A DNA stretch of 64,000 bases from Dehalococcoidia bacterium (GCA_963580875.1 CAUZMC010000003.1:2729-66728); one strand, 5' to 3'; counted from the first letter of the stretch, positions 8,017 through 53,922 are shown. Made by a program: numbers and translations. Notes: generated from the sequence alone by a model not told the origin.

Positions 8017-9465
8017 ATGCTGCTTATCTCAATTGCTTCACCTATTAGAGTATTGGTTTGCAATGTTAGGAGAGAAGACGCACCCGTGAAATACTCGAAT
8101 CCTATCCAAATATGGGAAGCAGCACTCGGCAGCTTGGAATTGCAAGTAAGTCGACCAAGCTACGCCACCTGGCTCAAAGGGACTGTCGGCCTATTTTTTA
8201 ATGACAATAAAATGGTTGTGGGAGCTCCCTCGTCTTTCGTTGCCCAATGGCTTGAGCAGCGGATGTCCTCACTAGTTGAAGCCACCCTTTCTCAAGTAAC
8301 TGGTCAGCCTGCAACCATACGGTTCCAGGTACTCACGGAACCATCCCTCCATACTGTCAACCAAATGGAACCTCAGGCTCTACCCGCCCAACTTATTCGC
8401 CCCGCAAATGGCCGCGCCGCCTCAAATGAGCCTAGATCAATTAAACTGAATCCGAAATACACCCTGGACTCCTTTGTCGTTGGCGAATCAAATCAACTCG
8501 CACATGCTGCTGCTGTCGCCGTCTCTTCAAGACCCGGTATCGCCTATAACCCACTTTTCCTGTATGGCGGCGTTGGCCTGGGGAAAACGCATCTTTTACA
8601 TGGGATTGGCCATGCCTCGGCCGGCAAGGGCCTCAGTTGTCTATACGTGAGCTCAGAACAATTTACAAACGAATTTATCACAGCAATTCAATTAAAACGA
8701 ACCGGCGAGTTCCGCGAAAAATATCGATCTGTAGATGTCCTCCTCATGGATGACATCCAATTTATGCGCGGGAAAGAAGCCATTCAAGAAGGCTTTTTCC
8801 ACACTTTTAACGATCTTCACAACTCCAACCGCCAAATCGTGATTGCTTGCGACAGGCCATCATCCGCATTGGCCCCACTGGAAGATCGGTTGCGGTCTCG
8901 CTTCCAGTGGGGGCTAAGTGCAGACATCCGAATGCCGGACATTGAAACGCGAAAGGCAATCCTTGAAGTTAAGGCTAGTTCTATGGGAGTTGGAGTTCCC
9001 GACAAGGTCCTTGACCTTATTTCTGAACATTTCCTCTCAAGTATTCGCGATTTAGAGGGAGCTCTGAACCGTGTGTGTGCATATGCTGACCTCACCGATC
9101 AACCTCTAGGCCTTGATCTCGCCTATCAAAGCCTAGGTGACTTATTAACAACCAAGCAAAAGAAAAGACCTTCAGCTGAAGTTGTTATATCTCGAGTATG
9201 TGTTTTCTATAACGTCGACGCTCAAGCACTCAGAAGTAAGCGTAGAGATAAAAAAGTAACTTTTGCTCGACAGGTAGCAGTATACTTGTTGCGTGAACTA
9301 ACAAATATGTCTTTAAAGGATATTGGATTCCTAGTTGGTAACCGAGATCATACAACCATCCGACATGCATGGGCTAAAATAGTAGAGGACAAAGATAGTA
9401 ATAGTGCCCTTAAGGCTCAGCTCGGTGCGCTCTATGAAGATATAGAAGATTCTCTTTCCGAATAA
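8017..9465 (+). CDS. dnaA: Chromosomal replication initiator DnaA
   Basis: Features seen are the AAA+ Walker A GGVGLGKTHL, a domain IV helix-turn-helix (VAVYLLRELTNMSLKDIGFLVGNRDHTTIRHA), and an N-terminal IWEAALGSLELQV. GTG 8086 (VKYSNPIQIW) is a plausible true start. Confidence 0.95.
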   Translation: MLLISIASPIRVLVCNVRREDAPVKYSNPIQIWEAALGSLELQVSRPSYATWLKGTVGLFFNDNKMVVGAPSSFVAQWLEQRMSSLVEATLSQVTGQPATIRFQVLTEPSLHTVNQMEPQALPAQLIRPANGRAASNEPRSIKLNPKYTLDSFVVGESNQLAHAAAVAVSSRPGIAYNPLFLYGGVGLGKTHLLHGIGHASAGKGLSCLYVSSEQFTNEFITAIQLKRTGEFREKYRSVDVLLMDDIQFMRGKEAIQEGFFHTFNDLHNSNRQIVIACDRPSSALAPLEDRLRSRFQWGLSADIRMPDIETRKAILEVKASSMGVGVPDKVLDLISEHFLSSIRDLEGALNRVCAYADLTDQPLGLDLAYQSLGDLLTTKQKKRPSAEVVISRVCVFYNVDAQALRSKRRDKKVTFARQVAVYLLRELTNMSLKDIGFLVGNRDHTTIRHAWAKIVEDKDSNSALKAQLGALYEDIEDSLSE

Positions 9466-15138: not shown

Positions 15139-17109
<1,971 letters not shown>

Positions 17110-28566: not shown

Positions 28567-28788
28567 TCATAGCGGTGTTCGTTGTGAGCCACATACATTA
28601 AGGGCCAATATCCTATATGAGACGAAAACCGTCATAATAGATGGATATTTAGCTTGCACATGTGTATCATTGCGCTGTAAAATAGTCATTGAAATCAGCA
28701 TGCGCTGTAGGTTGTTTGTAGCTGTCCCATTTCTTTGATGGATCAGAGATACCTCCTGGTATAAGCTTTGAGTAGGAGGGCTTGCAAT

Positions 28789-31071
28789 ATGGCAGTCTTT
28801 CAGAATATAGGATCGACTTTGGCGGGGCCTTCTGTCGACCCAGCATTCGCTAAGGTTTTGGATGAGTTGGTAGCTTTAGCCAAAAGAGGGCATAAGCCTG
28901 ATAGCCAATTCTTTAATCCATCAGATGAGTGGCTAATAAGCCACATGCGTATTTTTCAGGATCTTCCGGCCTCAGATCGCGAGCAAGTGCGGAAGGAAGC
29001 TGAACAGATCACTCAGGAATCAGGACGCCTTAATGGCGAAGGTAAGGCTGGCATTCGGGCTTGGCCTGATATAGTGGTCCGATTGGACACTGGTGGACTC
29101 GGCTTTTTTAGCCAGTTGGGGGTGGCCCGGAGGCCAGACCTGACCCAATATTTCATAGATGGCTTTCCAAGGAATCGTGACTCCCTGTCTTTCAGCGAGG
29201 CCAATCAATCCCTTTTTGCAGAGATATTCCCTTACATAAACAGTATGATGGAACAGTGTTTCTCATCTGGCGACACCATCATCCAGACAGACAGGCAGGT
29301 CGGCGACGTTCCTGAGCGCTCATTTCATGCACGGCAACTTTTGTTCGGCACCGACTATCCTCAGCTTCCATACATGTGGCGACAGTTGACATTCGACTCG
29401 CCCAAGGATGAGATGCAAAACGCACCTCAGATTTTGGAAGTTTCCATCCCCAAGTGGCTGGATGACCTAGGGCTACCACAGGCGCTTAAGGATCGCGTCC
29501 AAGAGGCGGGACTCAACAGGTTGGTCTTTAAGGCCCCCACAAAGGGTCTATCATTGCACCTAGGGTTCGATTATCTGGGTGAGCACAAGATGGGTCCGCT
29601 GTCTATAGCTATGTTCCTGGTGAAACATACCAAGGGACTTGCTCTGCAGGCGGCTCTGAGTATGGCGCGAACCAAGAACTTAGATGGTAAAATGACCAAT
29701 GCCGCGTTGGTTACCACTGGCCCTTCATTGCATGGCAAAAGCACCCTCACAGTCATGATAGAGTTGATTAAGAGTGATTTATCGGCACTTCTTGAACTTG
29801 AGATTGACTCTGATGAGGGTATTTACCCGATGAATGACGATATAGTACTGCTTCAACCGTTGGCAAAACCGGTGGAGATTGACCGCAATGGCAAGCAGAT
29901 CAGTGTTTCCTATGGTATAGACGGTACTGAGAACAACCTGTATGCGGTGCCATTTGGACTCACTCAAGAAAGCGACCCTATAGCATACGATGTTCTTCGC
30001 GGGTCTGAGGCCGAGCCGAATTCGCAGGAAACTCTTGAGAACGTGCCCTTCAATTTAAACGATAGCACACCGGATTTCCTTCAAAACCCCGTTCGCAATA
30101 TGAGGATGATACTGTCTCGGTCCAGGCTCTTAGATAGAAAGGGCGTTGCGCATCTGCCAAAGGCTTTCACTAACGGAAGGTTAAGTGATATGGTTCATGT
30201 GCCAATGGAGAGTACTGATAAGGTGCTTTGGCAGGGCGTGATGCGTCAAAACACCGTTGTTCCGCCTCTGGTTCGTTTGACGGCAGAGACTTATGTTCGT
30301 GCTCTCATGTATGGTGAGGCAGTCCAGACGGGTGCCGCCACGGGTGCCATAGGCAGGCCGTATGTGGAATACTTTTCGGACCCTTTCATCATCGGCTTGG
30401 AGGACGAGAACGCGAATTTGATGTACTCCATATTGCAGGATATCACTCAGGGTGGTCTGCCTCAGGAATACTACATGTTCAACACCGGTGGCTTGGGTGC
30501 GGACAGGAACGAAGAAGCCAGTGGGCCTCTGTATAGGAAGATCACCAGAGAGGTGACTCTTATGCTTCAGGAAGCTGTTCTTAGAGGTGCTGCGAAGTTT
30601 GAATACGATTCGGCCCTTGGCGTAGATGTGGCTGTGGCCATTGTAAACAAGCAGGGCAAAGAAGTACTAGATCTTCGGAAGGACTGGTTGCCTAGGGAGA
30701 TATACGGTGAACCTGAGTATCTTCGACGTGTGCTGGAGTTGAAAAAGAAACGATATTACGGAGAGCATGCCGAGGATAAGGCTGGTATTCTACGCTATAC
30801 TAAAGTCACGGAAGCAATCTTTAGCCTTGATGATATCCCTGCGCCATCCAATGAGCGTGAGTTGTCATGGCTCTTGTCTTTTTTCTGGCACGTTGATCAG
30901 GCTTACAACTCACTCACTGACTTGAAGCAGCATCTGAGCGAAGGTGAACGTCCATCCACTCAGGTCCTGAGTTCTCTTAAAAACTTCTATGCGGCGGGGC
31001 TTGCTAATGGGCTTGATCTGTCTTCAGAAAGCCAAGAACCCCTACGGCTCATGGAAATCATAGAGGGTTAG
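28789..31071 (+). CDS. Large divergent PEPCK(ATP)-superfamily-like P-loop protein of unknown function
   Basis: Motifs occur in PEPCK order: SPKD, the P-loop GPSLHGKST (29719-29745), NDDIVLL, ENV, NMRMIL, VVPPLVRLTAE...YGEAVQTGAATG, FSDPF and FNTGGLG. The protein is ~220 aa longer than canonical PckA and differs at several residues. ATG 28789 has GGAGG upstream. Confidence 0.5.
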   Translation: MAVFQNIGSTLAGPSVDPAFAKVLDELVALAKRGHKPDSQFFNPSDEWLISHMRIFQDLPASDREQVRKEAEQITQESGRLNGEGKAGIRAWPDIVVRLDTGGLGFFSQLGVARRPDLTQYFIDGFPRNRDSLSFSEANQSLFAEIFPYINSMMEQCFSSGDTIIQTDRQVGDVPERSFHARQLLFGTDYPQLPYMWRQLTFDSPKDEMQNAPQILEVSIPKWLDDLGLPQALKDRVQEAGLNRLVFKAPTKGLSLHLGFDYLGEHKMGPLSIAMFLVKHTKGLALQAALSMARTKNLDGKMTNAALVTTGPSLHGKSTLTVMIELIKSDLSALLELEIDSDEGIYPMNDDIVLLQPLAKPVEIDRNGKQISVSYGIDGTENNLYAVPFGLTQESDPIAYDVLRGSEAEPNSQETLENVPFNLNDSTPDFLQNPVRNMRMILSRSRLLDRKGVAHLPKAFTNGRLSDMVHVPMESTDKVLWQGVMRQNTVVPPLVRLTAETYVRALMYGEAVQTGAATGAIGRPYVEYFSDPFIIGLEDENANLMYSILQDITQGGLPQEYYMFNTGGLGADRNEEASGPLYRKITREVTLMLQEAVLRGAAKFEYDSALGVDVAVAIVNKQGKEVLDLRKDWLPREIYGEPEYLRRVLELKKKRYYGEHAEDKAGILRYTKVTEAIFSLDDIPAPSNERELSWLLSFFWHVDQAYNSLTDLKQHLSEGERPSTQVLSSLKNFYAAGLANGLDLSSESQEPLRLMEIIEG

Positions 31072-31994: not shown

Positions 31995-34454
31995 ATGGTA
32001 GTTCCTTCTATCGGCAACATACGACCAGTGCGTATCGAAGATGAGATGCGCAGCTCATATTTAGACTACGCCATGAGCGTTATTGTCGCTCGGGCACTTC
32101 CAGATGTGCGTGATGGACTCAAACCTGTGCAGAGACGAATCCTGTACGCTATGGATGACCTAGGCATGAGGGCCGGAACTTCGTATAAGAAGAGCGCCCG
32201 CTTGGTTGGAGAAGTGTTGGGAAAGTATCATCCCCACGGAGATAGTTCGGTATATGAGGCCATGGTTCGTATGGCCCAGGATTTCTCACTGCGTTATCCT
32301 TTGGTCGACGGGCAGGGTAATTTCGGAAGCATTGATGATGACCCTCCAGCGGCCATGCGATACACTGAGGCTCGTCTGTCCCCCATCGCACAACATATGT
32401 TGGGAGATATAGACAGCGACACCGTGGATTTTTCATCCAACTTTGACGATACCCTTCGGGAGCCTAAGGTTCTTCCTGCGGTGCTCCCAAACCTGTTGAT
32501 TAACGGGGCTTCTGGCATAGCCGTTGGAATGGCGACCAATATCCCTCCGCATAACCTGCGAGAGGTGTGCGATGCGGCTATTTATCTCATAGAAAACCCG
32601 AATGCCAACGTCGAAGACCTGATGAAGTTCATCAAGGCCCCTGATTTTCCCACTGGGGGTATCATCATGGGCCGGGAAGGTATTCTAAATGCCTATTCAA
32701 CGGGACGCGGGCGTGTGTTGGTACGGGCTAGGGCTACAATTGAGGAAGGCGAAAAGCGATCTGAGCGCAAGCAGATAGTGGTGACTGAAGTCCCTTTCCA
32801 GGTGAACAAAGCCACGCTAGTGGAAAAGATAGCTCAACTGGCTAAGGACAAGAAGATAGAGGGTATCAGCGAGGTTAGAGATGAATCAGACCGCCATGGC
32901 TTACGTGTTGTTGTTGAACTGCGGCGCGAGGCTCAGCCAGAGATTGTGTTAAATAACCTGTATAAGCATACGTCCATGCAGACGGCCTTTTTTGTTAACA
33001 CTTTGGCCCTGGTGGATGGACAACCACAGGTGCTGCCTCTGAAGAGGCTTCTTAGACATTACATAGACTTCCGTCGTGAGGTGATCACACGGCGAGCGAA
33101 GTTCGACCTGAAAAAAGCCGAGGAACGAGCCCATATACTTGAGGGCCTGAGAACGGCCCTTTCTAATCTTGACGAAGTTATCACACTAATACGTCAGGCC
33201 GCCGATGCGGATACCGCTCGGCAGGGACTGATGGAGTGGCTTGCCCTAACCCAGATACAGGCACAGGCAATTTTGGATATGCAGTTGCGGCGTATTGCAG
33301 CTCTTGAGAGGGAACGGATAGAGACGGAGTTCCAGCAACTGCGTAAGACTATAGACGAACTCGAAGATCTGCTGGGAGACCCTGAGAAGATACTGGCAGA
33401 AGTGAAGAAAGATACCCGAAAGATTAAGAAGGACTTTGGCGATGATCGTCGCACCGAGGTATGGGATGAGGAACCTACTGCTCCTACTAGGAAAGAATTG
33501 GAGCCCCATCAGGATATGGTGATTACCATTACTCAGCGCGGCTATGTGAAGAGCATGCCGCTTGACACATACAAAACCCAACACAGGGGAGGCAGGGGAG
33601 TGACAGGGATGGTCACTAGAGAAACCGATATACTCCAAAATCTCCTCGTAGCCGATACACACGATGCACTCTTGTTCTTTACCAATCGGGGCAGAGTATA
33701 TTCAAAACCGTGCTATGACGTACAAGTAGATGCTTCGCGCACTACTCGCGGCACTTCTGCTGTGAATCTGCTGTCTCTCAATGAGGGAGAGCAGGTCAGC
33801 ACGGTTCTGGCGATTTCTTCCAATGATAAGTATGAGTTTATAATGTTGGCCACTAGAAAGGGAGAGATAAAACGAATGGCTTTCTCTTCCTTGACTAACA
33901 TACGGAATAATGGGCTTATAGCTATGGATCTTGAGCCAGGTGACGAGGTTATTTCGGTTCGTGGGGCTAATGAAGGTGATGAGGTTGTGATGGTTACGGA
34001 TAAGGGCATGGCTGCCCGGTTCCCAATTGCCAATGTCAGGATAAGCAGCCGAATGTCCGGCGGCGTAAGAGGAATCCGTCTTGATTCGGATGACAGAGTA
34101 GTATCTATGGATACGGTCATAACTGGGGCACAGCTCTTTGTTGTAAGCCGTAGAGGATTTGGAAAGCTGACTCCCATACAGGCATATCGTAGGACGGCCA
34201 GGGGCGCCAAGGGTGTCATAACCCTCAAAATTACTGATAAGACTGGGCCTGTGGCAGCGGCACACTTGGTGATGGATGCCACAGAAGTCATGCTGGTATC
34301 CGAGCAGGGCATTATAGAGCGGCTCGCTTTATCAGAGGTTAGGGTGACTGGGCGTATTGCCCAGGGAGTGTGGCTTATACGAGACAAGGAAAAGGGTAAT
34401 TCGATGACTGTTGCTACCGTGACAAGTATCAACAGTTCGTTACCGAAGGCTTAA
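31995..34454 (+). CDS. gyrA: DNA gyrase subunit A
   Basis: Motifs seen are [31 protein letters not shown], the catalytic-Tyr region [10 protein letters not shown], and C-terminal beta-pinwheel repeats. Confidence 0.97.
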
Positions 34455-34471: not shown

Positions 34472-35854
34472 CTATTCGTCCCTCAGCCGTAAGTACTTGA
34501 ACAGCAGTGGATGGCGCTGAGTTGCTAAGTCAAGGGCTTCATGCATCACGCTGCGCAGGGTGAAATGGGCCTGGGGACTGGTGCGGAGCTTGAAGAGGTG
34601 ATAACACTCCCTCAGGTTCATTTTTGAGAGCACGCGGCGAAGGTGAGCGTGTGTTACTAAATACCCTCCAACCCCTGGCAAAGCCTCGGAAAGGCTGTGG
34701 AATCCCTTGGCTGCTGTTTCCATCGATTCCCTGAATTGTCCCTCCAGCCCGGCTTGCAAAATGAGGTCCGGGACGATGTACCCTAGATCTACCGTTGCCG
34801 GCTGTGAGATGTATGTTTGCATTCGGTGCCGCTTGAATTCTCTATAAGCTCCGTAGTCCATGACAAGGTCAAAGGTGTAGTCTACAGCTTCCAGTTCTCT
34901 TACTGGAATGTCATGTTGCCCAAGGCTGTTTAGCGCCTTGTGAATTACTTCCTCTCGTTGGGACTGGCTCATGTTCTTAACTCTTTGCAAAATATCACTA
35001 TACGAACTGGATGAGAAACGATATAGCAGTGTGGCCACCAGCTTGGATTCAGCTTCTTGGTCGTAGTGTACAAGTTCCGCTCGGCAGTCGGCGTATGGAA
35101 TTGCCTCTTCCTCGTTCTGATCCAGGTTATCTAGGGCTTCTCTAGATAACACTAGATAATCGTTGCGATCGGCATATTTTATGAGTGTGGGAGTTATGGT
35201 TCTTCCCTGTTCCCTTAGCGCTTCGCCTATCTCATGTTCCTCAAGGAGGTCAGAGGATAGGAGTTTGCGAATGGCGTGTTCCATGGACCGGGCATTCATG
35301 GTAATGCCCACGTTTGTCAGGGTGGCTGCTGGAAGTAGAAAACGGCAGACGTCCGTGGCCACACGCCGCAGGCGCAGATTGTAGGAAGAGTCACGTTCTC
35401 CCTCGTTCTTGGACGTAACGTTTGACAAATGCTCAAGCAGTCTTTCCGTTGTTTCCTGGTAGGCTCTGAACAGTGAGTCGCAGGTGTTCACGTACACGTC
35501 CCTGAGAGGGTGTCCTTCAAGTTCCACTGGGATGTGATAGTGGCCTTGGTCGAGTAACTGATATCGTGAGGATTTCTCAGTGTATGAAGCCAGGCGATTG
35601 TCCTCCATGGTGTCGCAGGCGAGGCGTGAGATATTTTCCGCTGCCATGTGGATAATTGCGTGCTCTGCTACCGAGGCATGGCCGTAGTTGAGTACCCATC
35701 GCTCGTGGAAGTTTGCGGCCTTCTCAGCGCTCACAACCTTGGCTATCTCATCGAAGGGTTGAGGGTTGCGTGAGGTCATGGCGAAGACTACCGCGAGCTG
35801 CTCCTCAGTCAGTTCCCTGGGGTCTAGTGGATAGATACGTCGAGATAAATTCAT
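34472..35854 (-). CDS. thyX: Double-domain (fused pseudo-dimer) FAD-dependent thymidylate synthase ThyX-like protein
   Basis: There are two Thy1-like halves. The N-half has HASVAEH and ..NRLASYTEKSSRY (..R..S....S.RY). The C-half has EFKRHRMQ. At 460 aa it is about twice a normal ThyX. Confidence 0.6.
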   Translation of the reverse strand: MNLSRRIYPLDPRELTEEQLAVVFAMTSRNPQPFDEIAKVVSAEKAANFHERWVLNYGHASVAEHAIIHMAAENISRLACDTMEDNRLASYTEKSSRYQLLDQGHYHIPVELEGHPLRDVYVNTCDSLFRAYQETTERLLEHLSNVTSKNEGERDSSYNLRLRRVATDVCRFLLPAATLTNVGITMNARSMEHAIRKLLSSDLLEEHEIGEALREQGRTITPTLIKYADRNDYLVLSREALDNLDQNEEEAIPYADCRAELVHYDQEAESKLVATLLYRFSSSSYSDILQRVKNMSQSQREEVIHKALNSLGQHDIPVRELEAVDYTFDLVMDYGAYREFKRHRMQTYISQPATVDLGYIVPDLILQAGLEGQFRESMETAAKGFHSLSEALPGVGGYLVTHAHLRRVLSKMNLRECYHLFKLRTSPQAHFTLRSVMHEALDLATQRHPLLFKYLRLRDE

Positions 35855-45549: not shown

Positions 45550-48057
45550 ATGGAAATTGTGATGCGATGGGTTGGTGTGTTTACAATAACTGTCGTGCTG
45601 GTGACGGCTTGTAGGCAACCCGTTGTTACTTCTGCCGAGCTATCCACAGAGGCCTGTACACAGGCCATCGTGACACCTATTGAGATGACAGCGTCAACAC
45701 CGACGCCGCTTCCAGTTCTGACGCCCAGTCCCGTTTCCAGCCGTACTACTAAGGCTATGGCTACGGTTACGCCAAATCTCGCCAACAGTCCTAGTCCCAC
45801 TCCAATCGCTACGCTTCAGTCGACGCCAACTGGTGAGAGGAATTCGAACATTGTGCCGTTCACGCCCAGAAACTGGATTTCATCTCTGGTTATCTCTGAC
45901 ACACCTGGGCAAAATAAGACCACAGACATGTTCGTTGACGGCACGATATATATAAGCTGGACTGTAATCAACGACAGTCACAACAACATCGGCCACACTT
46001 TTTTCGTAGATGTGTATTTGGACGGCGTTCTTGCTCAGAGGTGGCTGAATCAGAGCATTGAGGCCAACCAACAGAGAAGCGTCACAGATTGGAAGAGCCT
46101 GTCTACCAGAGTGAGGCTGCAACCCGGAACTCACATATTGAAGTTGGTGGTCGATCCAACTAACCTGATTCCTGAGACAAACGAGTTAGACAACGTATTC
46201 GTATCGGCCTTTACTTGGGCGCCTTCTAATAATGATCTTCCAGTGGTCACTCCTTCCCTCTCCAAGCTTCCTGACTTGGTGCCATACGCCCCAAATGGAT
46301 GGACGGGTTCTCTCATTGCTACGTCGTATCGCGGGGACAAGATGGACGGGCCTCTCTCTGTGGATGTTCCCACATACATCCGCTACGGGTTCCAGAATCG
46401 GGGCCTCGCCAGCGTAGAGGTGCCGATTTGGGCCTACCTCTACCTGGACGACGTTCTGGTTTCTTCCCAACTTGGTAGTGGACTTCTTGCCGATGAAACA
46501 GTTGGGAGTTCCGAGTGGGCAGGTTTGTTCGATGTGATCAACGTTACATCAGGTGTTCACATCTTGCGATTGGAGTTGGACGCCACTAACCTGATATTAG
46601 AAGTTGATGAGCGGAACAACACAGTCGAGAGAGAATTCATCTGGGGTACTGGTACAGTGGCTCCCAAGCCCGCTGTCGACCCGACTCCTTTAACTACTGT
46701 GCCAGTGCCATTGACCTTGCCCAACCTCGTTCCTGGATGGAAGCTGAATTGGGACGGTCCTATCATCGTTTCTCATGAGACGGAGACGTTCCTGAACAGT
46801 CCTTTGACTGTGGATGAAACGCCTTTCGTAGACGTGATAATACACAATGAGAGCATCGTTGAGGCTGATTCACCCTTTTCCGTTGATCTGTGCTTCGATG
46901 ATAGAGTTATCCACTCTTTCGAGTTTCCTGAAGGCATGAAACCGAACGGACTTTGGTATTTGCCGGACTGGGATGAGCTTGCCACCCTGACCCAGATAAC
47001 CGAGGGGATACACACTCTGAAGATTGTCATAGACTCGGACGATGCGGTAACGGAAGCCGATGAAGGCGACAACGTTTACCAAGTGACTCTGATGTGGAGG
47101 GCTGGTATCGTCGAAGCTCCTGTGACAACTATATATAGTATTCTGGAGCTTCGGCAGAAGTTGGTTGGTCTTCAGGTTCTAATCGACACGCGAGAGTCTG
47201 CCTTGAGCCCGGATGGACGCGATTATACTCGAGATATATTGGAGGTCGTCGATGCCGGATACTATCTCCTGACAGGCAAGAGTCTTCTGGACGAGAGGGT
47301 CGACATATCTCTTCTCAACCACAAAGATTATCTGGCGTGGATAGATGATTACTACGCCGAAAGGCTTGCTCTCAACGATGAGGCAAAATATACGGAACTT
47401 CTTGCCGAGCTGGAGAAGAAAAAGGCATCTGCAGGGCTGAAGACTTCGCGGTTCGGCAAGATCGCGGTGGTCATAGATGCCGAGCGTGATATTGCCGATG
47501 TCATAGGGTCGCTGGTCCACGAGTTGGGGCACATGCGTCAGGTATTCCTAAATCCTGACCAGGTCGATGGTGACAACCCTTCCTTCCAGAGCAAGGCTAT
47601 TCATGAAGCCCAGGCCCAGCAGTTTGAGAGAGCCTTCTGGCTGAAACTGGAGACATTTACAGGCTTGACGTTGCTGACATACCCAAACTACCAAGTGTTC
47701 AGGGATTTTATAGAAAACAGGTTCGACTATTGGGTCGCAGACATAAGTCGGGATGAACATTTTCTGGGATATCTGCTTCAGTGGCTGGTAGTGCTTGATG
47801 ACCCGAATTTGGTGGAGTTAAAACAGGAACTGACTGCTCAGGGGCGATTAAGATCTGAGTCGTCACTGAAATTGTACGATTACCTAGTTGGCCTTGCGCC
47901 GGAGTCTATCGAGGCATACGCAACATCACGCATACAGTCACTGGGCACCTACGCAGAAACCATTAAAGCAATATCACGTGGGCGGTTGGTGTTAGACTTG
48001 TATCCAGGCAATGAAGGATCTCCGAACCTGCGGGACTCGGGACTGCTGGCCCCATGA
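45550..48057 (+). CDS. Secreted/lipoprotein protein with three CARDB-like repeats and a C-terminal HEXXH metallopeptidase-like domain
   Basis: A signal with LVTAC lipobox and a T/P/S-rich linker are present. Three ~125-aa repeats (about 45847-46218, 46261-46644, 46711-47097) each end in a D..N.v.E.(D/N)E.(D/N)N-type motif: HILKLVVDPTNLIPETNELDN, HILRLELDATNLILEVDERNN, HTLKIVIDSDDAVTEADEGDN. HELGH lies at 47518-47532. The start could be ATG 45562. Confidence 0.6.
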   Translation: MEIVMRWVGVFTITVVLVTACRQPVVTSAELSTEACTQAIVTPIEMTASTPTPLPVLTPSPVSSRTTKAMATVTPNLANSPSPTPIATLQSTPTGERNSNIVPFTPRNWISSLVISDTPGQNKTTDMFVDGTIYISWTVINDSHNNIGHTFFVDVYLDGVLAQRWLNQSIEANQQRSVTDWKSLSTRVRLQPGTHILKLVVDPTNLIPETNELDNVFVSAFTWAPSNNDLPVVTPSLSKLPDLVPYAPNGWTGSLIATSYRGDKMDGPLSVDVPTYIRYGFQNRGLASVEVPIWAYLYLDDVLVSSQLGSGLLADETVGSSEWAGLFDVINVTSGVHILRLELDATNLILEVDERNNTVEREFIWGTGTVAPKPAVDPTPLTTVPVPLTLPNLVPGWKLNWDGPIIVSHETETFLNSPLTVDETPFVDVIIHNESIVEADSPFSVDLCFDDRVIHSFEFPEGMKPNGLWYLPDWDELATLTQITEGIHTLKIVIDSDDAVTEADEGDNVYQVTLMWRAGIVEAPVTTIYSILELRQKLVGLQVLIDTRESALSPDGRDYTRDILEVVDAGYYLLTGKSLLDERVDISLLNHKDYLAWIDDYYAERLALNDEAKYTELLAELEKKKASAGLKTSRFGKIAVVIDAERDIADVIGSLVHELGHMRQVFLNPDQVDGDNPSFQSKAIHEAQAQQFERAFWLKLETFTGLTLLTYPNYQVFRDFIENRFDYWVADISRDEHFLGYLLQWLVVLDDPNLVELKQELTAQGRLRSESSLKLYDYLVGLAPESIEAYATSRIQSLGTYAETIKAISRGRLVLDLYPGNEGSPNLRDSGLLAP

Positions 48058-48108: not shown

Positions 48109-48179
48109 TGCCGAGTGGTGTAGTGGTAGCACACGTGACTCTGACTCACGTAACCCTGGTTCGAATCCAGGCTCGGCAG
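48109..48179 (+). tRNA. tRNA-Gln (anticodon CUG)
   Basis: I folded the cloverleaf by hand:
- acceptor stem TGCCGAG/CTCGGCA
- D stem GTGT/GCAC
- anticodon stem CGTGA/TCACG with loop CTCTGAC (CTG at 48141-48143)
- T arm CCTGG-TTCGAAT-CCAGG
- discriminator G
U1-A72 with G73 is typical of bacterial tRNA-Gln. CCA is not encoded. Confidence 0.85.
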
Positions 48180-48328
48180 CTTCTGTTGTTAAACTGAGCT
48201 AGGTACGACCTCACGCGAAATGTAGCAACCAGTGACACGGCGTCTTATCATTTCTGGCTCCCAACATATGACCGTTCATTGACTGGTTGTTTTCAGCTCG
48301 ACTTTTCCTAGTGTAAAGGAGTCGCTTA

Positions 48329-50580: not shown

Positions 50581-52995
50581 ATGAACGGCACGGTTGATAG
50601 CGATAGACGGCAACAACTCCAGTGCAAGGCACTGGAGTTGTTGGAGTTTCCTCTGGTGCTAGAGCGCCTGGCAGGTCGCGTCCAGTTCTTTATGGCAAGG
50701 GAGTTGGCCTTTACGCTGAGACCTGCTTATACACACGACGATGTTTTGCGTGGCCAGCTTGAGACCTCAGAGGCTGTACAGCTTCTTGGTAGCGGTAACG
50801 ATTTAGACATATCCTCCAACAAGGATGTGAGGCTGCAGGTAGAAGCAGCGTCTCTCGGGAGCAGGCTCCAAGGCAATGAATTGCGAGACGTGCTCGAAGT
50901 GCTTACCGTGCTCGGCAAGGCTCGTCACGCTGTTATCGCACATGCGGAATTGCCCATTCTCGCCTCCTTGGCCAGGAAAATACCAGACTTAAACGGCCTT
51001 GAATTGCAGATATTCAAGGCAATTGGGAGAGACGGTGAAGTGTTGGATCAGGCTTCCACTCAACTGGCAGACCTGAGGATCGAGTCACGGAGAACTTACG
51101 ATCGATTAGAAGAACATCTCCAGAAAACCCTTAGGCATCTCCAGGAGGGAGGTGTGCTCCAGGAACCTCTGATAACTCAGCGTCAGGGCCGTATGGTCCT
51201 GTTGGTAAAATCGGAAATGAGGCACTATGTGCCGGGCATCGTGCACGATGTGTCCGGCAGCGGTGCAACGCTATTTGTGGAACCTCTGGCTATAGTTCCA
51301 GAAGGTAATCAATCGCGTGAGCTACGTTTGGCGGTAGAGCGTGAGGAAGAGCGAGTCCTACAGATACTCTCGGAGTCCGTGGGTGATAGGAGCGCCGAAC
51401 TACTGCTGGGATTGGAGATGGTGGCGCAGATTGACCTAGCGATGGCTAAGGGTCGATATTCGGTTGCCACGAATAGTGTGCCAGTCACGGTGGTCGAAAC
51501 TAAAAGACCTTATTTGCGCTTCAAGGATGCCCGTCACCCATTGCTTTATGGCAATGTGGTTCCGAATACCATAGAAATGGGCAACATGTGGTCTCTCTTG
51601 CTCATTACCGGCCCCAACGCCGGAGGCAAGACCGTTGCGCTGAAAACGACTGGTCTACTGGCTGCAATGGCTCATTCTGGTCTACACATCCCAGCAGACG
51701 AGGCCACTATCAGTATTTACGACGGCTTCTATGCAGACGTAGGTGACCAGCAGAGCATTCAGCGTTCCCTTTCAACCTTTAGTTCCCATGTTGATAACTT
51801 GACCAAGATTCTTGCTGAGGCTACGCCTGCGTCACTGGTTCTTATTGATGAACTGGGTACGAGTACGGACCCAGAGGAAGGAACAGCCCTGTCCAAGGCT
51901 CTCCTCCTTGAGTTCCATCGGAGGGGAATACAGACGATTGCCACATCGCACCTGCGAGACTTAGCTGAATTCATAAGCGAGAACCCAGGTATGGTCAATG
52001 CCAGCGTAGAGTTACATCCTGAGACACTGTCTCCAACCTATAGACTTATCATGGGTCTTTCAGAGAGGAGCTACGCTATTACTATTGCCGCTCGACTTGG
52101 TATGCCGCAAGCTGTCATTGATGATGCACGCTCTCTACTCTCAGATGATTATCACAAAATGGAAGGGCTGCTGGGTGACTTACAACGAGAGAAGAGTCAG
52201 GCTACCGCGAAGCGAGAAGAGGCGGAACAGGAAATGGAACGCGCCAATATACTGAGGCAGGAGTTGGACGAAAAGCTGACTGTATTGGAGCATGAGAAGG
52301 ATAGTTTGATGGAGTCGGTACGCCGCGATTTGGAGATCAAGGCCGAAGAGATATGGCAAAAACTGAGAGTCGCTGAGCAATCCTCGAAACGTACCGTATC
52401 TACATCTGTGCCGAAAGGAGCGGAAGAACTTGTGCCGGCGAATTCTTTCAAGGCTTTGCGTGATCAGAGATATGAAGTGTCGGCTCTGAGAAAAGAGCTC
52501 AGGTCTCACTCATGGCGCCCTGCCAGGGCTAGCCGCGATTGGATATGGGTTCTGAAGCCAGGGGATATGGTGTACTTGCAAGGGGTTAGTCAACCCATGG
52601 AGGTGCTTGCGGCTGTAGCGGATGATCAGACGCTGGAAATAGCGCTCGGTTCCATACGGGCTAAGATTCCCCTGGACCAGATTGAGTGTAAGGCTGAAGT
52701 TGCTGCTAAATCTCCTGCCATTACCATTACTGGGTCATCTCCCGTTGAAGCATCTTCAGGACGTGAACTGGACGTCCGGGGGATTCGCGTAGAAGAAGCA
52801 TTAATGCAATTGGATAACTTCTTGGATCAAGCCATATTGGCCGACTTGTCTTCTGTGCGAATTGTGCATGGAGTGGGAACAGGAGCACTGCGAGGCGCTC
52901 TGCGTGAATACCTCGCAGTGCACAAGCAAGTAGCCTTTTTTGTTCCTGACGAGAGCATGCGCACTGATGGAGCCACCATTGCCCAGCTAGCCTGA
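50581..52995 (+). CDS. mutS2: MutS2 (MutS-family ATPase with C-terminal Smr domain)
   Basis: Features seen are the N-terminal LELLEFPLVLERLAG, the P-loop GPNAGGKTV, DELGTSTDP, a long coiled-coil, and the Smr domain ELDVRGIRVEEA...VRIVHGVGTGALR. Confidence 0.93.
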   Translation: MNGTVDSDRRQQLQCKALELLEFPLVLERLAGRVQFFMARELAFTLRPAYTHDDVLRGQLETSEAVQLLGSGNDLDISSNKDVRLQVEAASLGSRLQGNELRDVLEVLTVLGKARHAVIAHAELPILASLARKIPDLNGLELQIFKAIGRDGEVLDQASTQLADLRIESRRTYDRLEEHLQKTLRHLQEGGVLQEPLITQRQGRMVLLVKSEMRHYVPGIVHDVSGSGATLFVEPLAIVPEGNQSRELRLAVEREEERVLQILSESVGDRSAELLLGLEMVAQIDLAMAKGRYSVATNSVPVTVVETKRPYLRFKDARHPLLYGNVVPNTIEMGNMWSLLLITGPNAGGKTVALKTTGLLAAMAHSGLHIPADEATISIYDGFYADVGDQQSIQRSLSTFSSHVDNLTKILAEATPASLVLIDELGTSTDPEEGTALSKALLLEFHRRGIQTIATSHLRDLAEFISENPGMVNASVELHPETLSPTYRLIMGLSERSYAITIAARLGMPQAVIDDARSLLSDDYHKMEGLLGDLQREKSQATAKREEAEQEMERANILRQELDEKLTVLEHEKDSLMESVRRDLEIKAEEIWQKLRVAEQSSKRTVSTSVPKGAEELVPANSFKALRDQRYEVSALRKELRSHSWRPARASRDWIWVLKPGDMVYLQGVSQPMEVLAAVADDQTLEIALGSIRAKIPLDQIECKAEVAAKSPAITITGSSPVEASSGRELDVRGIRVEEALMQLDNFLDQAILADLSSVRIVHGVGTGALRGALREYLAVHKQVAFFVPDESMRTDGATIAQLA

Positions 52996-53699
52996 TGCAA
53001 GACGTATCGATTCAGATCCTCCGCTATCTGGTAGCGCAATGGCAAGAGCCGGAGCGGGATGGTTACACTTACTGCCTGACACCCACTCAGTTGCCACCCG
53101 AAGAGACGAAGCTGTCAGATGAATCCATCGCAGCGATTCAGGCGTCCGAAACCGGTGCCATTTTATTCTGGAGCCCGAGTGAGGTACGACTCGTGCTGCC
53201 CCCATTTCCTATCGAATTTGAGTCCACAGCTTCCGGCTGGGACGTGGATCTTATGTGGTCGGTGCTGGAACGGCGAAGGATCGTCTTGGTACTGCTATTA
53301 CGGATGAGCGGCTTTGCTGTAGGCATATTTGAAGGCGAACACTTGGCTGTGTTCAAGACTGGTTCACGCTTTGTAAAAGGAAGGCACAAGAAGGGTGGCA
53401 GTTCATCGGCTCGCTTTGCCCGCCGCCGCGAGGATCAGGCCAGGATGCTATTTGACAAAGCTGCGGAAACCTTGCAAGAGCGAGTCGAAGCGTACCCCGG
53501 CAGCCTAACACACCTGATTCTAGGAGGCGATCGTTTGACGCTATTGGCCTTCGAGAAAAGGTGCCCTTTCCTGCAACACCTTGAGGTAATCCGCTTACAT
53601 CGCATACTGAACGTTGAGAGACCATCTCTGAATGCGCTCAAGGAGCTTCCACGCCAGATATACATGAGTCGGATTGTTACCTATCGTCCAGACTCATAA
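52995..53699 (+). CDS. Vms1-like eRF1-fold protein (acVLRF1-type), candidate peptidyl-tRNA hydrolase
   Basis: The core LLLRMSGFAVGIFEGEHLAVFKTGSRFVKGRHKKGGSSSARFARRREDQ resembles the VLRF1 domain of Vms1/ANKZF1. The ATG shares one nucleotide with the mutS2 TGA. Confidence 0.55.
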   Translation: MQDVSIQILRYLVAQWQEPERDGYTYCLTPTQLPPEETKLSDESIAAIQASETGAILFWSPSEVRLVLPPFPIEFESTASGWDVDLMWSVLERRRIVLVLLLRMSGFAVGIFEGEHLAVFKTGSRFVKGRHKKGGSSSARFARRREDQARMLFDKAAETLQERVEAYPGSLTHLILGGDRLTLLAFEKRCPFLQHLEVIRLHRILNVERPSLNALKELPRQIYMSRIVTYRPDS

Positions 53700-53877: not shown

Positions 53878-53922
53878 AACCAAATATGCCGTCCACGATT
53901 ATCGTGGACGGCATATTTGGTT
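53878..53922. repeat. Perfect 21-bp inverted repeat (3-nt loop) between convergent genes
   Basis: AACCAAATATGCCGTCCACGA-TTA-TCGTGGACGGCATATTTGGTT. No U-tract is present on either strand. Confidence 0.8.

What the first reader, a model, noticed from the sequence alone, without database searches (positions are those of the whole stretch)
50581..53699. MutS2 translationally coupled to a Vms1-like eRF1-fold (acVLRF1-type) protein: candidate bacterial collision-sensing plus nascent-chain-release module
What the sequence shows: mutS2 (P-loop GPNAGGKT, coiled coil, Smr domain) ends with TGA at 52993-52995. The next ORF begins with ATG at 52995-52997 (TGATG, 1-nt overlap), so the two are very likely co-transcribed and translationally coupled. 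The core of the 234-aa partner, LLLRMSGFAVGIFEGEHLAVFKTGSRFVKGRHKKGGSSSARFARRREDQ, reads like the eRF1-related peptidyl-tRNA hydrolase domain of eukaryotic Vms1/ANKZF1. Comparative genomics placed an Actinobacteria/Chloroflexi branch (acVLRF1) in this VLRF1 clade.

Established knowledge: Bacillus subtilis MutS2 recognises collided ribosomes and splits them to start RqcH/RqcP-dependent ribosome quality control. In eukaryotes, Vms1/ANKZF1 releases the nascent chain from the obstructed large subunit.

Inference: a fixed MutS2 -> VLRF1 pair would link collision sensing and splitting to a dedicated release factor in bacteria. I am not aware of this combination having been tested experimentally.

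One further oddity: where I recall Vms1 having GSQ with a catalytic Gln, this protein has GGSSS (Ser codon TCA at 53403-53405). The chemistry, or the role, may therefore differ.
Basis: partly seen in the sequence, partly recalled or inferred. Interest (0 to 1): 0.75.

Follow-up and report, generated by a model that had tools for sequence, protein, structure and literature searches.

The report
MutS2 paired with glutamine-less Vms1-like factor
A Dehalococcoidia chromosome encodes the ribosome-collision ATPase MutS2 overlapping by one base a small Vms1/eRF1-like protein that lacks the usual catalytic glutamine; the pairing recurs in other lineages, making it a testable candidate for the missing dedicated nascent-chain release step of bacterial ribosome quality control.

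Summary
ORF 50581-52995 is a full-length MutS2 (TIGR01069, 703 bits; aligned end to end with ribosome-bound B. subtilis MutS2). ORF 52995-53699 is an acVLRF1 protein (Pfam PF18859, 96 bits). Its AlphaFold model (pLDDT 91) matches eRF1/aRF1, Pelota, Balon and Vms1. The two ORFs overlap as TGATG.

The pairing is not a one-off. Among 161 acVLRF1 loci, MutS2 is the immediate neighbour in 39, in three configurations:
- MutS2>acVLRF1 in the window's Dehalococcoidia clade (20 of 21).
- acVLRF1>MutS2 in a separate clade that keeps the glutamine (18 of 19).
- Convergent genes in two Actinomycetota MAGs.

No other translation gene recurs next to acVLRF1. The linkage is not universal, and the overlap itself occurs only in the window and two close relatives.

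The loop is GGSSS. Serine replaces glutamine both at the eRF1 GGQ position and at the Vms1-type GxxQ position. This holds across the clade, and about 27% of family representatives lack the glutamine. The loop remains the most conserved part of the protein.

The searchable literature does not report the pairing or the glutamine-less form.

Best reading: a two-gene module in which MutS2 splits collided ribosomes and acVLRF1 then acts on the 50S-peptidyl-tRNA. The linkage is well supported; the chemistry is untested.

The parts
50581..52995 (+). mutS2 (804 aa), a full-length orthologue of the B. subtilis ribosome-collision ATPase MutS2/RqcU
   Evidence: TIGR01069 scores 703.5 bits against a cutoff of 400. 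phmmer to PDB 7qv3/8qpp MutS2 gives E 6e-126 over aa 14-785. dN/dS against L001 is 0.16.
51601..52140 (+). MutS domain V (ABC-type ATPase). Walker A GPNAGGKT is at 51610-51633 and Walker B LIDELG at 51841-51858.
   Evidence: Pfam PF00488 scores 122.6 bits.
52768..52989 (+). C-terminal Smr domain of MutS2 (LDVRG ... HGVGTG)
   Evidence: Pfam PF01713 scores 65.6 bits over aa 730-803. It aligns to the B. subtilis MutS2 Smr domain.
52993..52997 (+). TGATG junction: the mutS2 stop overlaps the acVLRF1 start by one base. The nearest GGAG lies 23 nt upstream, so there is no Shine-Dalgarno-like purine run within 5-12 nt of the ATG.
   Evidence: Read directly from the sequence. An identical TGATGCA(A/G)GACGTA junction occurs in L001 and L002 only.
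52995..53699 (+). acVLRF1-family protein (234 aa): a short N-terminal extension followed by an eRF1 middle-domain fold
   Evidence: Pfam PF18859 scores 96.1 bits. NCBIfam NF041024 scores 105.5 bits, below its 125 cutoff. The AF2 model has pLDDT 91.2. Foldseek E-values are 1e-9 to eRF1 and 1.5e-3 to Vms1 6r84. dN/dS is 0.17.
53283..53675 (+). acVLRF1 / eRF1-domain-2 core (aa 97-227)
   Evidence: Pfam domain boundaries. A profile alignment matches aRF1 3agk and 4af1 at E about 3e-11.
53394..53408 (+). Loop GGSSS (aa 134-138), the counterpart of eRF1 GGQ and VLRF1 GGxSQ. Both glutamine positions (S136, S138) are serine. The loop is flanked by conserved basic residues R130, H131, R140, R143 and R145.
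   Evidence: Alignments. Mean entropy of the loop region is 0.58 bits against 1.80 for the whole protein in 123 glutamine-less homologues.
53878..53922 (.). Perfect 20-bp hairpin between the convergent acVLRF1 and aldo-keto-reductase genes. It is a likely operon end, although the T-run after it is weak.
   Evidence: Terminator-like scan. The number of sites found in the region is no higher than in shuffled sequence, so this is only suggestive.

Best explanation
mutS2 and the downstream acVLRF1 gene form a two-gene ribosome-rescue operon in a Dehalococcoidia (Chloroflexota) chromosome.

Shown:
- Both gene identities.
- The overlapping, same-strand arrangement.
- Conservation of MutS2-acVLRF1 adjacency in three independent gene arrangements.
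- Purifying selection on both genes.
- An eRF1-middle-domain fold whose Gly-Gly loop and flanking basic helix are the most constrained part of the protein.

Inferred, by homology with B. subtilis MutS2 and with Vms1 on the 60S subunit:
1. MutS2 recognises collided ribosomes and splits the stalled one.
2. The small acVLRF1 protein has no codon-reading N domain and no C domain. It enters the vacated A-site side of the 50S-peptidyl-tRNA complex.
3. It places its GGSSS loop at the peptidyl-transferase centre and frees the nascent chain, either by ester hydrolysis or by cutting the tRNA 3' end.

In this clade, serine replaces the glutamine of the family motif. The invariant Gly-Gly, the invariant Ser137 and the undiminished loop conservation suggest that the loop still works at the peptidyl-transferase centre, probably with altered chemistry or specificity.

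The TGATG overlap, with no nearby Shine-Dalgarno sequence, suggests that acVLRF1 is made by termination-reinitiation, which would tie its synthesis to that of MutS2.
For: Identity:
- MutS2: TIGR01069 703 bits, with MutS_V and Smr domains. It aligns over its full length to ribosome-bound B. subtilis MutS2.
- acVLRF1: PF18859 96 bits. The AF2 model has pLDDT 91.2 and pTM 0.86. Foldseek hits eRF1/aRF1 at E 1e-9 and Vms1-60S 6r84 at E 1.5e-3. The profile matches aRF1 at E 2e-11.

Linkage:
- MutS2 is the immediate neighbour in 39 of 161 acVLRF1 loci.
- Among the 92 loci with at least 2.5 kb on both sides, 32 have a MutS2 or Smr hit.
- MutS2>V occurs in 20 of 21 members of the window's clade.
- V>MutS2 occurs in 18 of 19 members of a distinct clade that keeps the glutamine; the 19th contig ends 60 nt downstream.
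- The genes are convergent in two Actinomycetota MAGs, and a stand-alone Smr protein lies beside acVLRF1 in L019.
- MutS2 is the largest genuine neighbour cluster, and no other translation gene recurs.

Selection:
- dN/dS is 0.17 for acVLRF1 and 0.16 for MutS2.
- Loop-region entropy is 0.58 bits against 1.80 for the whole protein in 123 glutamine-less sequences.

Context from the literature:
- In a published survey, 35 of 41 Chloroflexota genomes have mutS2 but only 26 have rqcH (PMC11633108).
Against: - No experiment and no ribosome-binding data exist for any acVLRF1.
- The window protein has no glutamine at either catalytic-loop position. Mutating the equivalent glutamine inactivates Vms1/ANKZF1 (my recollection of Verma 2018 and Yip 2019).
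- About two thirds of informative acVLRF1 loci have no MutS2 within 2.5-6 kb.
- 3,213 surveyed Actinobacteriota genomes have no mutS2. This is one of the two main phyla the family was described from, so the protein should not strictly need MutS2.
- Within single clades, unrelated genes are equally conserved neighbours (SDR, RpiB, MetRS, a UvrD-like helicase). Clade-level synteny alone therefore proves little.
- The overlap is confined to three close relatives.
- In some bacteria MutS2 is also described as a recombination-suppressing endonuclease.
- Whether rqcH, rqcP or pth are present in this genome could not be checked.
Confidence: 0.55

Rival explanations
1. Non-catalytic partner, in the manner of Pelota/Dom34. 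Having lost the glutamine, the window-clade acVLRF1 no longer releases the peptide. It acts instead as an A-site or peptidyl-transferase-centre plug. In that role it could help the MutS2 ABC-type ATPase split ribosomes, block subunit rejoining, or hand the 50S-peptidyl-tRNA to Pth or RqcH. The parallel is glutamine-less Pelota working with the ABC ATPase ABCE1.
For: - The loop has neither the eRF1-type nor the Vms1-type glutamine.
- Foldseek also matches Pelota/Dom34 and the hibernation factor Balon.
- Park et al. 2023 draw the general parallel between active and inactive eRF1-family and Smr versions.
- MutS2 is an ABC-fold ATPase.
Against: - The protein lacks the N and C domains that Pelota uses to reach the decoding centre and to contact ABCE1 and the GTPase.
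- In catalytically dead aeRF1 families the loop region is reported to be poorly conserved (PMC6514570). Here it is the best-conserved segment.
- The MutS2 link also exists in the clade that keeps the glutamine, so the link does not depend on losing catalysis.
Confidence: 0.2
2. Neighbours without a shared job. acVLRF1 would be a stand-alone, specialised release or rescue factor, as Burroughs and Aravind proposed in 2019. MutS2 would act separately, on ribosomes or on DNA recombination intermediates, and the adjacency would be inherited synteny.
For: - The 2019 paper describes prokaryotic VLRF-1 proteins as stand-alone.
- Most loci lack MutS2 nearby.
- Actinobacteriota genomes have no mutS2.
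- Other neighbours are also conserved within clades.
Against: - A single-copy gene recurs as the immediate neighbour in three arrangements, across two phyla, with acVLRF1 identities down to about 36-40%.
- By my rough estimate, chance adjacency is about 1e-3 per lineage.
- Spacers on the same strand are short, or the genes overlap.
- In Actinomycetota, where mutS2 is rare, two MAGs that carry it place it next to acVLRF1.
- A stand-alone Smr gene abuts acVLRF1 in L019.
Confidence: 0.15
3. Balon-like hibernation or idle-ribosome factor. The eRF1-like protein would occupy the A site of intact 70S ribosomes during stress rather than acting after splitting.
For: Foldseek matches to Balon on Mycobacterium and Psychrobacter ribosomes (E 1e-6 to 1e-5). 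A secondary Pfam hit to baeRF_family10 (50 bits).
Against: - Balon is a three-domain tRNA mimic that works with EF-Tu. This protein has only the middle domain plus a short N-terminal extension.
- No hibernation-factor (HPF) neighbour was found.
- The best profile match is acVLRF1, not a baeRF family.
Confidence: 0.05

Closest known systems
acVLRF-1 family (Burroughs & Aravind 2019; Pfam PF18859; NCBI product name 'Vms1/Ankzf1 family peptidyl-tRNA hydrolase')
   Same: - Domain make-up: an eRF1 middle domain only, with a short N-terminal extension and no stop-codon or Pelota-type domains.
- Basic helix after the loop.
- Chloroflexota host.
- Above the Pfam threshold.
   Different: - The family motif is given as GGxSQ, but here it is GGSSS, as in about 27% of family representatives.
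- The score is below the NCBIfam cutoff.
- The 2019 paper describes prokaryotic VLRF-1 proteins as independent of other RQC components, whereas here the gene is operonic with MutS2.
Eukaryotic Vms1/ANKZF1 (eVLRF-1), the RQC release factor / tRNA 3'-end nuclease on the 60S subunit
   Same: - Same catalytic-domain fold (Foldseek hits 6r84_R and 5whg).
- Expected to act downstream of ribosome splitting on a large-subunit-peptidyl-tRNA complex.
- Vms1 works beside an ABC-type ATPase (Arb1), by my recollection of Su et al. 2019.
   Different: - No zinc finger, ankyrin repeats or VIM/Cdc48-binding parts.
- No catalytic glutamine.
- Bacterial 50S target.
- The partner is MutS2.
- B&A 2019 derive the eukaryotic family from the bVLRF-1 family, so acVLRF-1 is only a more distant relative.
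B. subtilis RQC: MutS2/RqcU - RqcH - RqcP/YlmH - Pth
   Same: The MutS2 orthologue has the same ATPase, coiled-coil and Smr layout and aligns end to end. The pathway logic of sensing a collision, splitting the ribosome and then dealing with the 50S-nascent chain is the same.
   Different: - In B. subtilis, release is attributed to the general enzyme Pth, and no dedicated factor is known.
- Here an eRF1-fold protein is encoded with MutS2.
- Whether RqcH-mediated Ala-tailing exists in this organism is unknown.
Pelota/Dom34 with ABCE1 (archaea and eukaryotes)
   Same: A glutamine-less member of the aeRF1 superfamily paired with an ABC-fold ATPase that splits stalled ribosomes.
   Different: - Pelota has N and C domains and a GTPase partner, and its loop is not conserved.
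- This protein is single-domain with a highly conserved Gly-Gly loop.
Bacterial rescue release factors with conserved partners (ArfB; PrfH-RtcB)
   Same: A small, codon-independent release-type protein used for rescue. For PrfH, it is genomically coupled to a partner enzyme.
   Different: These have the unrelated bacterial RF fold with a GGQ motif and act on 70S ribosomes. None is linked to MutS2.

Membership tests
MutS2 (TIGR01069 / RqcU) | Equivalog profile score above the curated cutoff | tested here: met
   703.5 bits against a cutoff of 400, covering aa 16-803.
MutS2 (TIGR01069 / RqcU) | MutS domain V ATPase with Walker A/B motifs, plus a C-terminal Smr domain | tested here: met
   PF00488 122.6 bits and PF01713 65.6 bits. 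GPNAGGKT is at 51610-51633 and LIDELG at 51841-51858.
MutS2 (TIGR01069 / RqcU) | KOW/SH3-like (MSSS) domain preceding the Smr domain | tested here: inconclusive
   PF20297 scores only 13.3 bits against a cutoff of 26.8. The region does align to B. subtilis MutS2.
MutS2 (TIGR01069 / RqcU) | Binds collided disomes and splits the ribosome | not testable with these tools
   Inferred from full-length homology to 7qv3/8qpp.
acVLRF-1 (PF18859) | Pfam profile score above the gathering threshold | tested here: met
   96.1 bits against 27.1, covering aa 97-227 of the protein and positions 3-129 of the 130-position model.
acVLRF-1 (PF18859) | NCBIfam NF041024 curated cutoff | tested here: not met
   105.5 bits against a cutoff of 125. 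This marks a divergent subgroup.
acVLRF-1 (PF18859) | eRF1 middle-domain (RNase H-like) fold without the stop-codon-binding N domain or the C domain, and with a short N-terminal extension | tested here: met
   The protein is 234 aa. AF2 pLDDT is 91.2. Foldseek hits eRF1/aRF1/Vms1. The profile matches aRF1.
acVLRF-1 (PF18859) | GGxSQ catalytic-loop motif with a conserved glutamine (PMC6514570) | tested here: not met
   The loop is GGSSS. Serine occupies both the eRF1 glutamine position and the VLRF glutamine position. The same holds in 123 related sequences.
acVLRF-1 (PF18859) | Conserved arginines at the start of the helix after the loop | tested here: met
   R140 and R145 are invariant, and R143 and R144 are at least 90% conserved, in A1.
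acVLRF-1 (PF18859) | Peptidyl-tRNA hydrolase or tRNA-nuclease activity on large-subunit complexes | not testable with these tools
   I found no biochemical data for any family member.
Bacterial RQC pathway (MutS2-RqcH-RqcP-Pth) | RqcH (NFACT) and RqcP/YlmH present in the same genome | not testable with these tools
   Only 64 kb of the genome is available. Every ORF of at least 480 aa in the window was identified as something else.
Conserved MutS2-acVLRF1 gene pair (proposed here) | Adjacency recurs beyond this genome and in more than one arrangement | tested here: met
   39 of 161 loci show it. MutS2>V in 20 of 21 clade members, V>MutS2 in 18 of 19, and convergent in 2.
Conserved MutS2-acVLRF1 gene pair (proposed here) | Stop/start overlap (translational coupling) conserved | tested here: not met
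   TGATG occurs only in the window, L001 and L002. Elsewhere the spacers are 3-190 nt.

The most novel reading that the evidence does not exclude
MutS2 plus acVLRF1 is a complete two-protein bacterial ribosome quality-control pathway that needs no RqcH: split the ribosome, then release the chain, with no alanine tail. It would then be a prokaryotic counterpart of the Vms1 step that has been missing.

In the window's clade the release factor would work without any glutamine at the peptidyl-transferase centre. Two chemistries are possible: a serine-positioned water, or a transient seryl-ester. Either would be a new catalytic solution for a ribosome-dependent release factor.
Probability: 0.2. Interest if true: 0.85.

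Novelty: new variant of a known kind. Interest (0 to 1): 0.64.

Why it matters
The last step of bacterial ribosome-associated quality control is the least understood. A 2024 paper states that no dedicated termination factor is known and that the housekeeping enzyme Pth does the job in B. subtilis.

A gene pair that joins the collision-sensing splitter MutS2 to a Vms1-type protein, conserved in two gene orders, names a concrete candidate. It can be tested in vitro on 50S-nascent-chain complexes.

The finding also bears on three wider points:
- It gives independent comparative support for a translational, rather than DNA-repair, role of MutS2 outside Firmicutes.
- It revises the 2019 view that prokaryotic VLRF-1 proteins are stand-alone.
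- It exposes a large, strongly conserved glutamine-less subgroup. That subgroup bears on the debate about what the GGQ/GxxQ glutamine actually does, and on hydrolase versus nuclease versus non-catalytic roles.

Limits: the organisms are uncultured Dehalococcoidia, both protein families are already named, and no function has been shown.

Tried and rejected
Literature:
- The spelling 'acVLRF1', and 'MutS2 + VLRF1', gave 0 papers. The family is written 'acVLRF-1' in PMC6514570. That paper never mentions MutS or Smr, and its supplement is not held.
- A broad taxon-plus-Vms1 query returned only irrelevant ecology papers.

Methods that failed or were limited:
- My first greedy ORF caller failed in high-GC loci, producing spurious long ORFs and 'no gene' calls. 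I replaced it with tblastn frames plus clustering of all ORFs.
- A contig look-up for representative P0132 gave only an 844-bp contig, so I used the metagenome scan instead.

Explanations for Q>S considered and rejected:
- Sequencing error or pseudogene. Rejected because CAR>TCN needs two substitutions, 123 homologues share the loop, and dN/dS is 0.17.
- A compensating amide one residue later. Asn follows in the SSSN and SSAN groups and Gln in QSAQ, but the window clade has Ala or Gly there.
- Glutamine loss as the cause of the MutS2 link. Rejected because the V>MutS2 clade keeps the glutamine.

Other candidate partners near acVLRF1:
- I looked among recurrent neighbours for another translation or rescue partner such as RqcH, an S4-domain protein, Pth, HPF or ArfB. 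None was found.
- The recurrent neighbours are SDR, RpiB, MetRS, a UvrD-like helicase, an acyl-CoA synthetase, a HemL fusion and a formate-dehydrogenase-like enzyme.
- MetRS lies downstream in one clade. I judged this to be synteny.


Full report
**Observation.** The window carries an 804-aa ORF at 50581-52995 (+). A 234-aa ORF follows at 52995-53699 (+). The stop TGA (52993-52995) and the start ATG (52995-52997) share one base, giving TGATG. No purine-rich Shine-Dalgarno-like run lies within 5-12 nt of that ATG; the nearest GGAG is 23 nt upstream. A consensus scan found no promoter-like site at the junction between the genes (the two it reported lie inside mutS2 and at the end of acVLRF1) and a perfect 20-bp hairpin at 53878-53922. 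That hairpin sits between acVLRF1 and a convergent aldo-keto-reductase gene. The number of terminator-like sites in the region is no higher than in shuffled sequence.

**Identities.** The first protein is MutS2.
- TIGR01069 scores 703.5 bits (cutoff 400), MutS_V 122.6 bits and Smr 65.6 bits.
- Walker A GPNAGGKT is at 51610-51633 and Walker B at 51841-51858.
- It aligns over aa 14-785 with the B. subtilis MutS2 solved on collided ribosomes (7qv3, 8qpp; E 6e-126).

The second protein matches Pfam acVLRF1 (PF18859) at 96.1 bits (cutoff 27.1). Weaker overlapping hits are baeRF_family10 and eRF1 domain 2. It falls below the NCBIfam acVLRF1 cutoff (105.5 against 125).
- An AlphaFold2 model built on 86 homologues is confident: pLDDT 91.2 and pTM 0.86, with only the loop around residues 130-140 dipping to about 60-76.
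- Foldseek against the PDB returns eRF1/aRF1 (E 1e-9), then Balon, Pelota/Dom34 and yeast Vms1 on the 60S subunit (6r84_R, E 1.5e-3).
- A profile of the family finds aRF1 at E 2e-11.

Close homologues are from Dehalococcoidia MAGs. L001 is 91% identical. NCBI already names an 80%-identical protein 'Vms1/Ankzf1 family peptidyl-tRNA hydrolase'. The window itself is chromosomal and near the replication origin, with dnaA, gyrB and gyrA present.

**Is the pairing conserved?** I collected 80 acVLRF1 loci from species-representative genomes and 80 from metagenome contigs. I searched them with MutS2 proteins. Including the window, 39 of 161 loci have MutS2 as the immediate neighbour. Of the 92 loci with at least 2.5 kb on both sides, 32 have a MutS2 or Smr hit. 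On a tree of the acVLRF1 proteins the hits fall into coherent groups:
- (i) MutS2>acVLRF1 on the same strand, in 20 of the 21 members of the window's clade. L011 is the exception.
- (ii) The opposite order, acVLRF1>MutS2, with spacers of 45-192 nt, in 18 of 19 members of a separate marine Dehalococcoidia clade. The 19th contig ends 60 nt downstream. That clade is only about 37-40% identical to the window protein, and its MutS2 proteins are about 42% identical to the window's.
- (iii) Convergent, abutting genes in two Actinomycetota MAGs (L076, L079).
- (iv) In L019, a stand-alone 113-aa Smr protein converges on acVLRF1.

Pfam confirmed the partners in these other arrangements. When all ORFs within 3 kb were clustered, MutS2 was the largest genuine neighbour family, and no other translation-related gene recurred. 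The other recurrent neighbours are an SDR, RpiB, MetRS, a UvrD-like helicase, an acyl-CoA synthetase and a HemL fusion.

These other neighbours show that conservation within a clade can be plain synteny. The case for a functional link therefore rests on three things: the recurrence of a single-copy gene in three arrangements across two phyla, the operon-like spacing, and the biological fit.

The linkage is not obligatory. Most loci lack MutS2 nearby, and a published survey found mutS2 in 0 of 3,213 Actinobacteriota genomes, against 35 of 41 Chloroflexota genomes (26 of which have rqcH) (PMC11633108). The TGATG overlap occurs only in the window, L001 and L002; other clade members have short spacers. 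Both genes are under similar purifying selection (dN/dS 0.17 and 0.16 against L001).

**The loop.** The family was defined with a GGxSQ motif (PMC6514570). The window protein has GGSSS (aa 134-138, nt 53394-53408).
- Alignment to aRF1 (GGQSQRRY) and eRF1 (GGQSALRF) shows that the classical GGQ glutamine corresponds to S136.
- The Vms1-type GxxQ glutamine corresponds to S138.

So the window protein has no glutamine at either position. This is a clade trait. About 100 of the 120 closest database proteins read GGSS(S/A). Among the 150 best 50%-identity representatives of the family, 103 are GGxSQ, 4 are GGQSA and 41 (about 27%) have no glutamine (28 SSA, 12 SSS, 1 TSS); two representatives were not classed. 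Some glutamine-less groups have Asn one residue later, but the window clade has Ala or Gly there.

The loop has not decayed. In 123 glutamine-less sequences the segment 126-146 has a mean entropy of 0.58 bits, against 1.80 for the whole protein. R130, H131, G134, G135, S137, R140, R143 and R145 are near-invariant, much as in the glutamine-containing set (0.94 against 2.29). This entropy figure is partly inflated, because six positions were fixed by the pattern used to select the sequences. The 2019 paper notes that catalytically dead eRF1-like families show poor conservation around this loop, and that is not what is seen here.

**Mechanism.** Shown: the gene identities, the fold, the operon-like arrangement, the conserved linkage and the constrained loop. 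Inferred from homology:
1. MutS2 senses collisions and splits the stalled ribosome, as in B. subtilis.
2. The single-domain acVLRF1 cannot read codons or mimic a whole tRNA. It binds the exposed A-site side of the 50S-peptidyl-tRNA, as Vms1 does on the 60S subunit.
3. It uses its Gly-Gly loop at the peptidyl-transferase centre to free the chain.

The MutS2 link also exists in the clade that retains the glutamine. The partnership therefore probably began with a catalytically conventional protein, and the window clade later replaced Gln with Ser while keeping the loop under constraint. Work on bacterial RF1/RF2 suggests the Gly-Gly backbone matters more for hydrolysis than the Gln side chain (my recollection of Shaw & Green 2007, cited in PMC6514570). 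By contrast, mutating the glutamine inactivates Vms1/ANKZF1. Activity of the GGSSS form is therefore genuinely open. I put the module-plus-release reading at about 0.55.

**Rivals.**
- A Pelota-like non-catalytic helper of the MutS2 ATPase (0.2). The missing glutamine favours it. The absent N and C domains, the conserved loop and the glutamine-containing linked clade count against it.
- Synteny without shared function (0.15). The multiple arrangements count against it.
- A Balon-like hibernation role (0.05). The single-domain architecture and the lack of an HPF neighbour count against it.

**Comparison with what is known, and novelty.** Both families are known and annotated. In the searchable literature no paper mentions MutS2 together with VLRF1. 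The only work mentioning MutS2 and Vms1 together says bacteria have no known dedicated RQC termination factor. The MutS2 structure paper, co-authored by the family's describers, does not mention such a neighbour. The 2019 paper calls prokaryotic VLRF-1 proteins stand-alone. The library covers only open-access papers and bioRxiv, so an earlier report elsewhere cannot be excluded.

I rate this as a new variant of a known kind: a bacterial RQC-type module with a Vms1-like component, plus an undescribed glutamine-less subgroup. Interest is moderately high, because it makes an acknowledged gap directly testable. It is tempered by the absence of any functional data, by the incomplete linkage and by the uncultured hosts.

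Noticed in passing
L019:6684-7025 (- strand), beside acVLRF1 at L019:5827-6666: A stand-alone 113-aa Smr-domain protein (Pfam Smr, 80 bits) converges on acVLRF1 with an 18-nt gap. It follows what looks like a selA gene (judged by eye from its N-terminal sequence, not searched against any profile). In this lineage, placed close to the MutS2>acVLRF1 clade on the NJ trees, the Smr module alone keeps the neighbourhood.
   Followed up: partly
L060:4550-4981 and 25 other loci (e.g. L084, L100, L124, L154): Ribose-5-phosphate isomerase B (LacAB_rpiB, 179 bits) is a recurrent upstream neighbour of acVLRF1 in marine clades, in both orientations. In the L060 group the order is rpiB>acVLRF1>mutS2 on one strand. 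This is probably synteny.
   Followed up: partly
window 53878-53922: A perfect 20-bp inverted repeat with a 5-nt loop lies between the convergent acVLRF1 and aldo-keto-reductase genes. It looks like a bidirectional terminator but has no clear T-run.
   Followed up: no
window 34472-35854 (- strand): A 460-aa ORF has two matched stretches of the ThyX (Thy1) domain. This is about twice the usual ThyX length (from memory) and suggests a tandem-duplicated or fused flavin-dependent thymidylate synthase.
   Followed up: no
window 45550-48057 (+): An 835-aa, probably secreted protein has a CARDB domain, further repeats that look similar by eye, and a C-terminal HELGH zinc-protease-like motif. A tRNA-Gln(CTG) gene lies directly downstream at 48109-48180.
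   Followed up: no
window 28768-31071 (+): A 767-aa ORF whose only Pfam hit is a partial PEPCK_ATP match (40.9 bits, no single stretch passing the threshold). It may be an unusual P-loop kinase-like protein.
   Followed up: no
window 8017-9465, 15139-17076 (-), 31995-34454: dnaA, gyrB and gyrA lie within 26 kb of each other. The window is therefore close to the chromosomal replication origin, and mutS2-acVLRF1 sits about 41 kb from dnaA.
   Followed up: no
acVLRF1 residue Q148 (window 53436-53438): A glutamine ten residues after the loop, in the basic helix, is 98% conserved in the glutamine-less set but only 61% in the glutamine-containing set. R144 and K133 are likewise more conserved in the glutamine-less set. 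This may be compensatory. Its distance to the loop tip in the model was not measured.
   Followed up: no
L092, L093, L097 (metagenome contigs of 112-164 kb): acVLRF1 homologues with the GGSSQR motif occur on contigs with only 28% G+C. This is far from typical Chloroflexota or Actinomycetota composition, so the family may reach other lineages. No MutS2 lies within 5 kb.
   Followed up: no
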